Positions 33,385-34,228 of a stretch of 64,000 nt of DNA are shown here, piece after piece. Each line of letters starts with the position of its first letter. Positions within the stretch are counted from its first letter, which is position 1. The DNA comes from Eledone cirrhosa. Its lineage: Eukaryota. Both the position numbers and the translations under genes were made by a program. The stretch covers positions 291,152,001-291,216,000 of the forward strand of contig OZ024741.1 of NCBI GenBank assembly GCA_964016885.1, given 5' to 3'. The notes under the pieces are model-generated. The model searched no databases. It was not told the origin of the DNA and worked only from the letters and a program-made list of their open reading frames with translations.

Positions 33385-33584
33385 GATATATATATATATA
33401 TATACAAACATATCTTCTTGCTCAACGAGGCCGGGTCATCCTAAGCCAGCGATCCCACAACATCGTCTTGAGTAGAGCCGAGATATACACATATACTAAT
33501 CATCCGCTCTCATTTGGGAATGGTTTTGTATGGCGTCAGTTTGTGATTTGAACTCGGGAATTTTATATTCTCCGAGGGAGAAGA

Positions 33585-33651
33585 GCCTTCTAAAGATGGA
33601 AATCCGCTTGGATTTTCCGTTTATTCTGGAGCATGAAACCGCGGTAAAGGC
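33585..33651 (+). ncRNA. Hammerhead in repeat copy 1 (core mutated to CTAAAGA)
   Basis: GCCTT-CTAAAGA-..-GAAAC-CGCG-GTA^AAGGC; palindromic stem III ACCGCGGT. Confidence 0.6.
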
Positions 33652-34057
33652 ACATATAGTAAGTACAGCGAATTTTTTAAAATTTATTTTAAAACTTTTT
33701 CTCTATTTGCTAGACCTTGATTTTATACTTTCTGGCTTGTTAATTTATTAACCCGCCATAGACCCACATTGGCATACGTTTGGCTAATACTTGTTTCCCT
33801 ATATGTATTTTTTACACGTAGGAATTCATACTTTATTATTATTGATCTCCCCCTAAGGTAGAGATAAAATATTGGCCGTTTGGACAGCTCCTATTTCTAG
33901 TGGCAGGACATTGACCTGTCCACCCTGCCTTTTGTCTTTGCACACGGCACCAGACAGAATTATTTCTCTCATCATCCGCTCTCATTTGGGAATGGTTTTG
34001 TATGGCGTCAGTTTGTGATTTGAACTCGGGAATTTTATATTCTCCGAGGGAGAAGAT

Positions 34058-34137
34058 CCTTCTGAAGATTCCTCCCTTCTTAATGGAAATCTGCTTGTAT
34101 TTTCCGTTTATTCTGGAACATGAAACCACGGTAAAGG
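34058..34137 (+). ncRNA. Hammerhead in repeat copy 2 (core CTGAAGA)
   Basis: CCTT-CTGAAGA-TTCC..GGAACAT-GAAAC-CACG-GTA^AAGG. Confidence 0.65.
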
Positions 34138-34228
34138 CACATATAGTAAGTACAGTGAATTTAAAAACATAATTATTTTAAAACTTTTTCTCAATTTGCT
34201 AGACATTGATTTTATATATATATATATA

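What the first reader, a model, noticed from the sequence alone, without database searches (positions are those of the whole stretch)
33499..34216. LTR-like mini-element with two in-register hammerheads defining a ~487-nt monomer
Seen: ~230-245-bp direct repeats separated by ~243 bp of non-coding sequence, each with a hammerhead at the same position (predicted cleavage after 33646 and 34133). The copies have complementary defects: copy 1 core CTAAAGA with perfect ACCGCGGT; copy 2 core CTGAAGA with ACCACGGT. An intact ancestor can therefore be reconstructed. Inference: a 1.5-mer insertion reverse-transcribed from a circular or tandem RNA, unrelated in sequence to the 63.6-kb family.
Basis: partly seen in the sequence, partly recalled or inferred. 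Interest (0 to 1): 0.72.

Follow-up and report, generated by a model that had tools for sequence, protein, structure and literature searches.

The report
Hammerhead retrozyme with Penelope insertion ends
This is one damaged, one-and-a-half-unit copy of a scattered 487-base non-coding repeat that carries a predicted self-cutting hammerhead RNA motif and is likely pasted into TA microsatellites by Penelope-type jumping-gene enzymes, probably from an RNA circle, which makes it a new family of a kind of element (retrozyme) already known in animals.

Summary
The repeats, both hammerhead motifs and the 487-nt spacing are real. They are not LTRs: window 33499-34217 is a 5'-truncated 1.5-mer of a 487-nt non-coding unit. 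The family is dispersed (138 exact matches to a 26-base hammerhead stretch). In 100 loci, 5' ends vary, but 130 of 160 segments end at two AU-rich internal sites, A and B, 82 and about 193 nt past the cleavage site, mostly against (AT)n. In head-to-head insertions one arm ends at A and the other at B (30 of 32). Diagnostic alleles are shared within insertions. A young sister-family insertion holds 26 near-identical units in two arms. These are Penelope-like element (PLE) hallmarks, and autonomous PLEs in this genome show the same paired ends; none sampled is homologous to the unit. The hammerhead has a 50-53-nt helix II that covaries across sister families. Cleavage, expression and circularity were not tested. 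Verdict: a new family of metazoan non-LTR retrozyme (non-autonomous PLE). This scan already noted similar families here and in other genomes.

The parts
33499..34217 (+). Whole insertion: 5'-truncated 1.5-mer (monomer positions 325-487, one full unit, then 1-82)
   Evidence: L001 1501-2219, 1.50 units, 94.4% to family majority
33647..34133 (+). One 487-nt monomer, cleavage site to cleavage site; non-coding, 38% GC in the family majority
   Evidence: 46 full monomers extracted (some from overlapping loci of one array), majority length 487, longest ATG ORF 78 aa; window unit 96.7% identical
33585..33651 (+). Hammerhead copy 1 (type I): core G5A and a 15-nt deletion in helix II; predicted inactive; predicted cut after 33646
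   Evidence: that G5 is essential is established hammerhead knowledge (recalled)
34057..34138 (+). Hammerhead copy 2: core intact, 53-nt helix II with 2 mismatches, 1 helix I mismatch, broken loop III palindrome; predicted weak; predicted cut after 34133
33720..33728 (+). Site A (AU-rich, monomer position about 75-82), read through in the first unit
33729..33764 (+). Hairpin directly 3' of site A, start of the ~110-nt 'tail'; fold kept in sister families, eroded in this copy
   Evidence: 6 of 6 natural copies from three families fold with the same basal stem and AU bulge
33827..33843 (+). Site B (monomer position about 186-197), second fixed 3' end of the family, read through here
34209..34217 (+). 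Site A used as this insertion's 3' end
34218..34274 (.). (AT)n tract at the 3' junction, the likely target
   Evidence: 139 of 160 family segments end against (AT)n
33481..33498 (.). Degenerate TA-rich tract at the 5' junction

Best explanation
The window holds a decayed, 5'-truncated 1.5-unit copy of a dispersed 487-nt non-coding repeat with a type I hammerhead motif, which is likely a non-autonomous passenger (non-LTR retrozyme) of Penelope-like retroelements, likely copied into TA microsatellites from a monomeric, probably circular, RNA. Steps. (1) Inferred: tandem copies are transcribed and two hammerheads pair through their palindromic helix III to cut out 487-nt monomers, which a host ligase would close. 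(2) Shown as a pattern, enzyme inferred: a PLE GIY-YIG endonuclease nicks (AT)n and the RT starts inside the RNA at site A or site B, not at the ribozyme cut. (3) Shown: copying runs through the cleavage site for 0.2-2.5 units, rarely 19 or more, and stops at variable points, so the apparent LTRs are the overlap of a 1.5-turn copy. (4) Shown as a pattern, mechanism inferred: when both target strands are extended, one arm starts at A and the other at B, on the same template sequence. The window copy used site A, has one arm only, and can probably no longer cut itself.
For: Dispersed family. 3' ends: 88 of 160 segments at position 78-84, 42 at 186-197, 1 at the cleavage site; 139 of 160 followed by (AT)n; 5' ends in all 20 bins; 47 of 100 loci have a head-to-head inverted arm. 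A/B pairing 30 of 32, p = 1.2e-7 against independent choice; 47 of 54 single-arm insertions end at A. Sister family: 10 of 11 two-arm loci A/B. Autonomous PLEs here (RT plus C-terminal GIY-YIG) show a short and a long end in 3 of 3 two-arm loci and carry hammerheads with palindromic helix III. Same template within an insertion: at 16 sites chosen by rule, a minor allele is shared in 44 of 84 tandem and 39 of 84 inverted-arm comparisons against 6727 of 47472 between loci; at six diagnostic sites 57 loci are all-minor and 13 mixed. Young sister insertion: 19 + 9 cleavage sites in two arms, 17 of 26 full units identical, ends at A and B. Hammerhead helices I and II covary across 12 representatives. 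The circular fold is more stable than 40 shuffles, z = -4.35. Two internal RT start sites bounding a tail are shown in vitro for a PLE (PMC11167929); tails, inverted 5'-truncated arms and (TA)n targets are PLE features (PMC8557442); mussel and axolotl retrozymes are circular RNAs (PMC7229834).
Against: No autonomous PLE homologous to the monomer among 50 GIY-YIG loci, a small sample of 10,597 first-look candidates; the 3' regions of the two PLE families compared align no better than shuffles (p 0.13 and 0.11). For a lizard PLE, hammerhead cleavage is not needed for insertion in vitro and uncleaved RNA is the main substrate, so a linear tandem template fits much of the data. 8 of 9 Xenopus retrozyme dimers did not cleave in vitro. 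The hammerhead fold is 3.3 kcal/mol above the minimum-energy fold for an intact copy, and the isolated 101-nt motif folds no better than shuffles (z = -1.12). 5' ends are not clearly enriched at the cleavage site (7 of 160 against 4.3 expected), and 6 of 160 start at position 287, which could be a transcription start on linear RNA. Allele sharing within insertions is about 50%, not 100%, on the rule-chosen sites, and gene conversion could add to it. Loci were selected for hammerhead content or full length.
Confidence: 0.72

Rival explanations
1. Same PLE passenger, but the template is a linear, mostly uncleaved tandem transcript. The hammerhead is an inherited pseudo-LTR feature with little or conditional activity, and long arrays come from long read-through RNAs or later unequal crossing-over.
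For: Uncleaved RNA is the main substrate for a PLE in vitro. 8 of 9 Xenopus dimers were inactive. 5' ends cluster mildly at position 287 (6 of 160). The 19.4-unit array shows mosaic variant patterns, consistent with later recombination.
Against: A multimer offers several A sites, yet A/A pairs are 1 of 32. A 28-site two-arm insertion with 17 of 26 identical units needs a 9-kb homogeneous RNA or separate expansion of both arms. Helix covariation across families about 67% alike shows that the hammerhead fold is under selection. The family's one sampled array carries private alleles that are not common in dispersed copies.
Confidence: 0.2
2. The unit is the terminal repeat (solo pseudo-LTR) of a still unseen autonomous PLE, and these copies are just its short 5'-truncated insertions.
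For: PLE insertions are mostly 5'-truncated, and Xenopus retrozymes are homologous to pseudo-LTRs. Only 50 PLE loci were examined.
Against: In 100 loci the sequence upstream of a unit is the previous unit, an inverted arm or flank; 56 of 160 segments exceed one unit. PLE protein matches in 8 loci were not shown to be joined to the repeat, and none recurs at a fixed position. No ORF in the unit. An origin from a pseudo-LTR remains likely; present mobilisation as part of a coding element does not.
Confidence: 0.06
3. A true LTR mini-element (TRIM or plant-type LTR retrozyme) moved by an LTR retrotransposon, as the title suggests.
For: This single copy looks like two direct repeats around a spacer.
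Against: No fixed left end, the spacer is part of the tandem unit, no TG...CA ends in the sequence, type I rather than type III hammerhead, inverted arms and (AT)n targeting.
Confidence: 0.01

Closest known systems
Metazoan non-LTR retrozymes (Cervera and de la Pena 2020, PMC7229834: passages and the mussel section read; Li, Clavereau and Pollet 2026, 10.64898/2026.07.22.740005: parts 1-3 of 5 read)
   Same: Non-coding, low-GC tandem units with one type I hammerhead each, from partial copies to long arrays; no LTR ends; stable predicted circular fold; autonomous PLEs in the same genome.
   Different: 487 nt is above the 170-400 nt of the 2020 paper (inside the 51-972 bp range of the 2026 preprint). 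Helix II is 50-53 nt with a U-U first pair, a pyrimidine internal loop and an apical stem. Most copies are dispersed 0.3-2-mers with PLE-type ends. RNA was not examined here.
Penelope-like elements: Neptune/Nematis-type insertions and the Poseidon element PAc (Craig et al. 2021, PMC8557442, passages; Frangieh et al. 2024, PMC11167929, parts 1-2 of 4)
   Same: Partial tandems that mimic LTRs, an inverted 5'-truncated arm, a tail on one end bounded by two internal RT start sites just 3' of the hammerhead, and AT-rich or (TA)n targets.
   Different: No ORF. The tail is about 110 nt against 30-40 bp. The start sites here match the TA target over a few bases, whereas PAc starts at an AC-rich site not homologous to the target. 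Strict A/B pairing of the arms is not stated in the passages I read; the PAc paper saw no difference in start site between strands.
PLE-type hammerheads with small palindromic helix III (Cervera and de la Pena 2014, PMC4209133, passages)
   Same: Short helix I (5 bp), enlarged helix II, extra unpaired base after A9, palindromic helix III predicted to need a dimer.
   Different: Helix II is far longer, and its first pair is U-U in 12 of 12 representatives (the search pattern required these two U) rather than the G10.1-C11.1 that the paper calls highly conserved; the same U-U is seen without that requirement in a resident PLE family and in the 63.6-kb family.
Plant LTR retrozymes (as summarised)
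   Same: Two hammerheads delimit a non-coding monomer.
   Different: Those have true LTRs, type III hammerheads, PBS/PPT and 4-bp TSDs. This element has a type I motif, no fixed left end and no visible TSD.

Membership tests
Metazoan non-LTR retrozyme | Tandem non-coding units, each with a type I hammerhead | tested here: met
   19.4-unit array at G000:C1:176.44-176.45 Mb
Metazoan non-LTR retrozyme | Many dispersed copies, GC under 45-50%, no protein | tested here: met
   (GC 0.38, longest ATG ORF 78 aa)
Metazoan non-LTR retrozyme | No LTRs, PBS or PPT | tested here: inconclusive
   No LTR ends: shown. PBS and PPT were not searched for.
Metazoan non-LTR retrozyme | Self-cleavage of the hammerhead | not testable with these tools
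   Only core conservation (33 of 51 with intact core and closed helix III) and covariation
Metazoan non-LTR retrozyme | Expressed as linear and circular monomer RNA | not testable with these tools
   No RNA run could be laid on it; indirect genomic signs only
Non-autonomous Penelope-like element | Partial tandems (pseudo-LTRs) with variable 5' truncation | tested here: met
Non-autonomous Penelope-like element | Adjacent inverted 5'-truncated arm | tested here: met
   47 of 100 loci
Non-autonomous Penelope-like element | Two internal 3' ends bounding a tail present at one end | tested here: met
Non-autonomous Penelope-like element | AT-rich or (TA)n target | tested here: met
   139 of 160 segments
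Non-autonomous Penelope-like element | Sequence homology to the pseudo-LTR of a resident autonomous PLE | tested here: inconclusive
   None in 50 GIY-YIG loci by blastn and nhmmer; the sample is small
LTR retrozyme / TRIM | Fixed LTR boundaries on both sides | tested here: not met
   5' ends in all 20 bins; copies extend past both 'LTRs' in tandem
LTR retrozyme / TRIM | Type III hammerhead | tested here: not met
   Helix I is the open end, so type I

The most novel reading that the evidence does not exclude
The insertions are a genomic record of a PLE reverse-transcriptase dimer priming both nicked strands of a TA target on one monomeric RNA circle. The circle has only one site A and one site B, which forces the A/B pairing, and each RT then rolls round it with strand displacement, up to 19 and 9 turns in the young sister insertion. 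The hairpin 3' of site A and the conserved 50-nt helix II extension would be the protein-binding and switch elements. This would give a short, defined substrate for testing rolling-circle target-primed reverse transcription.
Probability: 0.35. Interest if true: 0.6.

Novelty: new member of a known kind. Interest (0 to 1): 0.3.

Why it matters
As a class it is known, and this scan has already noted several similar families, so the window copy itself is ordinary and probably dead. Its value is mechanistic. How retrozymes move, and whether PLE RT uses circles, is stated as unresolved in the papers read. This family and its young sister give fixed start sites, strict arm pairing, allele sharing between arms and a near-identical 28-site inverted array. 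Together these make one-template, rolling-circle priming directly testable with a ~460-490-nt RNA and a resident PLE protein.

Tried and rejected
Rfam: no hammerhead match in the element; the whole-window scan gave 341 matches, of which the 150 listed are microsatellite-driven and below gathering scores. Pfam family PF26215 is not in the library, so PF01541 was used. Search for an autonomous partner: blastn and an nhmmer profile over 50 GIY-YIG loci hit only a sister retrozyme inserted beside a PLE. Sequencing runs: no RNA holder listed, which is no evidence either way; laying X1, X4 and X5 showed related sequence, mostly under 95% alike, but nothing on expression or RNA ends. I considered that sites 222 and 225, which are mixed within insertions (3 all-minor, 7 mixed) and mostly unlinked to subfamily alleles, record RT errors at a modified RNA base; rejected, because they are mirror-image changes in a palindromic A4T4 tract (26 of 84 and 12 of 84 against 168 of 39475 elsewhere), which points to a DNA-level hotspot or a base-calling artefact. 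A first concordance count on 10 sites picked after viewing the data (42 of 50, 37 of 48) was replaced by a rule-chosen set. The MAFFT alignment of hammerheads was out of register between families, so pairs were counted from anchored positions instead. The 19.4-unit array as master source: unlikely, since its shared alleles at 429 and 432 are not among the 40 commonest variants of dispersed copies. A SECIS reading of the helix II extension was considered from memory and dropped: there is no ORF, and the motif was only judged by eye. No tree of the PLE proteins was built. A look-up of earlier scan findings by this monomer's sequence returned nothing.

Full report
Observation. The region 33499-34217 holds two direct repeats about 88% alike. 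Each carries a type I hammerhead: 5-bp helix I, core, helix II, GAAA, a short helix III and GUA. The predicted cuts fall after 33646 and 34133, 487 nt apart. Copy 1 has G5A and a 15-nt deletion that removes the 5' strand of helix II. Copy 2 has an intact core, one helix I mismatch, two helix II mismatches and a broken loop III palindrome (self-duplex -3.9 against -14.1 kcal/mol). One helix II mismatch of copy 2 lies where copy 1 is deleted, so the pair alone does not give the ancestor. Rfam does not detect the motif.

Family. The own genome (3.0 Gb) gave 54 matches from 39 scored of 2809 first-look candidates. An exact 26-mer from the hammerhead has 138 matches and its reversed control none. 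Since 20 of 51 sampled hammerheads keep that 26-mer, a few hundred copies is a fair estimate (inference). The majority monomer is 487 nt and 38% GC, with no ORF over 78 aa; monomers are on average 95.2% identical to it, the window unit 96.7%. Of 51 natural hammerheads, 33 keep the core and a closed helix III and 12 are fully intact. The host looks like a cephalopod from its SINE and microsatellite load; this is recalled, not from a call.

Ends. I mapped 100 loci (160 segments). They were the best full-length hits and most of the 100 listed places; 14 loci were set aside (13 overlapping or duplicate, 1 outside the family), and the array was treated apart. The sample is therefore biased to hammerhead-bearing copies. 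3' ends fall at monomer position 78-84 (site A, 88 segments) or 186-197 (site B, 42), once at the cleavage site and 29 times elsewhere; 139 of 160 abut (AT)n. 5' ends fall in all 20 bins. 47 of 100 loci have a head-to-head inverted arm. The 'LTRs' are therefore the overlap of a 1.5-unit copy that starts at position 325 and ends at site A. Among 47 two-arm insertions (one duplicated locus counted twice), 31 are A/B, 1 A/A, 1 B/B, and 14 have another end. Counting the duplicate once, 30 of 32 are mixed (p = 1.2e-7). Single-arm insertions end at A in 47 of 54. One 19.4-unit array lies at C1:176.44-176.45 Mb; its units differ by 11% but share private alleles, so it stems from one template.

One template per insertion. 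Non-majority bases are shared in 22% of tandem and 20% of inverted-arm comparisons within an insertion, against 7% between loci. At 16 rule-chosen polymorphic sites the figures are 44 of 84, 39 of 84 and 6727 of 47472. At six diagnostic sites, five of them linked to each other, 57 loci are all-minor and 13 mixed. Both arms and successive units thus come from the same monomer sequence. This fits a circle, but also a homogeneous multimer or later gene conversion.

Sister families and structure. A gapped hammerhead pattern has 1168 matches (control 0), and the 100 listed fall into several families. One sister family (457-467 nt, 67% identical over aligned columns) is homologous along the unit and pairs its arms A/B in 10 of 11 two-arm loci; that query ended near site B, which biases the sample. 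A young insertion of it at C1:156.425-156.438 Mb has 19 and 9 cleavage sites in two opposed arms, 17 of 26 full units identical, and ends at A and at B. This is the strongest sign of repeated copying of one template. Across 12 representatives, helix II positions 2, 3, 6 and 7 pair in 12 of 12 with two to four pair types, helix I positions 2 and 3 switch pair type between families, and the 50-53-nt helix II keeps a pyrimidine internal loop and an apical stem. A hairpin just 3' of site A is kept in 6 of 6 copies from three families. The circular fold of the majority monomer beats 40 shuffles (z = -4.35). Against this, the hammerhead conformation is 3.3 kcal/mol above the minimum-energy fold, and the isolated motif is not unusually stable.

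Partner. GIY-YIG matches are abundant (150 scored of 10,597 candidates). [quoted passage not shown] They have a C-x4-C-x2-C motif before the nuclease, which Craig et al. give for the Neptune and Nematis clades. One family has a U3-A8 hammerhead with the same CCUU/AAGG helix I as this element, and short and long ends on opposite arms in 3 of 3 two-arm loci. Another has the same UUGC/GCAU base of helix II. Neither 3' region aligns to the monomer better than shuffles, and a profile search of the 50 loci finds no homologous coding element. The partner class is thus inferred from the insertion marks; the exact partner is unknown.

Mechanism. Shown: tandem unit, fixed internal 3' ends, (AT)n junctions, variable 5' ends, read-through of the cleavage site (132 of 160 segments, in a sample selected for hammerheads; 56 longer than one unit), A/B pairing, allele sharing, and helix covariation. 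Inferred: dimeric self-cleavage, circularisation, PLE enzymes as the mover, and both arms on one RNA. Untested: any RNA. I put about 0.92 on a non-autonomous PLE-mobilised retrozyme, split about 0.72 circular monomer and 0.20 linear uncleaved multimer. The linear rival is serious, because a PLE in vitro inserted uncleaved RNA and did not need its hammerhead, and most Xenopus dimers did not cleave.

Comparison with what is known. Animal non-LTR retrozymes are described in PMC7229834 (passages and section 14 read) and linked to PLE pseudo-LTRs in 10.64898/2026.07.22.740005 (parts 1-3 of 5). Tails, inverted arms and (TA)n targets are in PMC8557442 (passages). Two internal RT starts are in PMC11167929 (parts 1-2 of 4). 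Palindromic, dimer-type hammerheads are in PMC4209133 (passages). Six searches listed no paper whose title or abstract opening describes this family, a cephalopod retrozyme, or strict arm pairing; the library lacks most subscription papers, so this is weak. Earlier notes of this scan report the same class in this genome and in others, paired ends included. They are unchecked AI notes, seen after my own count, and are not independent support.

Verdict. Real, partly misdescribed, and a new family of a known kind. The window copy is probably inactive. Interest 0.3: the class is known, but the family and its young sister make the rolling-circle, two-site priming model testable.

Noticed in passing
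G000:C1:156425778-156438443 (L192, L193): Young sister-family insertion, 457-nt unit, 19 + 9 cleavage sites in two opposed arms, 17 of 26 full units identical; one T>G change recurs in 5 of the 26 full units, scattered over both arms, and in the partial unit at the junction.
   Followed up: partly
window 63637-64000 and L116: The 63.6-kb family: 311-nt unit, about 1.5 copies between (AT)n tracts, one hammerhead with short helix II, U-U first pair and palindromic helix III. Unrelated in sequence but the same design.
   Followed up: partly
monomer positions 222 and 225 (window about 33868-33871): Mirror-image A>C and T>G changes in a palindromic A4T4 tract at 31% and 14%, never together in 71 loci; a strand-symmetric hotspot or a base-calling artefact.
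   Followed up: partly
L147, L148, L152, L156, L158 (3' regions): Autonomous PLE family with a U3-A8 hammerhead core, ORFs up to 938 aa, partial tandems and a ~65-nt tail on one arm.
   Followed up: partly
window 33410-33495, minus strand: Fragment of another repeat (40 scored matches of 273 candidates); in other loci it is the 3' end of an element with a (GAA)n tail, likely a LINE.
   Followed up: partly
window 33089-33385: tRNA-type SINE on the same strand about 110 nt upstream of the element (recognised from memory, not from a call); it could drive read-through transcription.
   Followed up: no
window 45411 region, minus strand: A further hammerhead-like motif found by the regular-expression scan.
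   Followed up: no
window 46832-52075: Apparently intact two-ORF non-LTR retrotransposon (593 aa and 1153 aa, endonuclease and RT motifs by eye), with broken relatives at 53.6-55.5 kb and 8.9-9.7 kb.
   Followed up: no
monomer position 287: 6 of 160 segments begin exactly here; a possible transcription start or RT stop.
   Followed up: no
L197-L202, L207, L210, L211: A third sister family (CUGAUGA core) with the same long helix II and tail hairpin; site A near 90 and site B near 180-200.
   Followed up: partly
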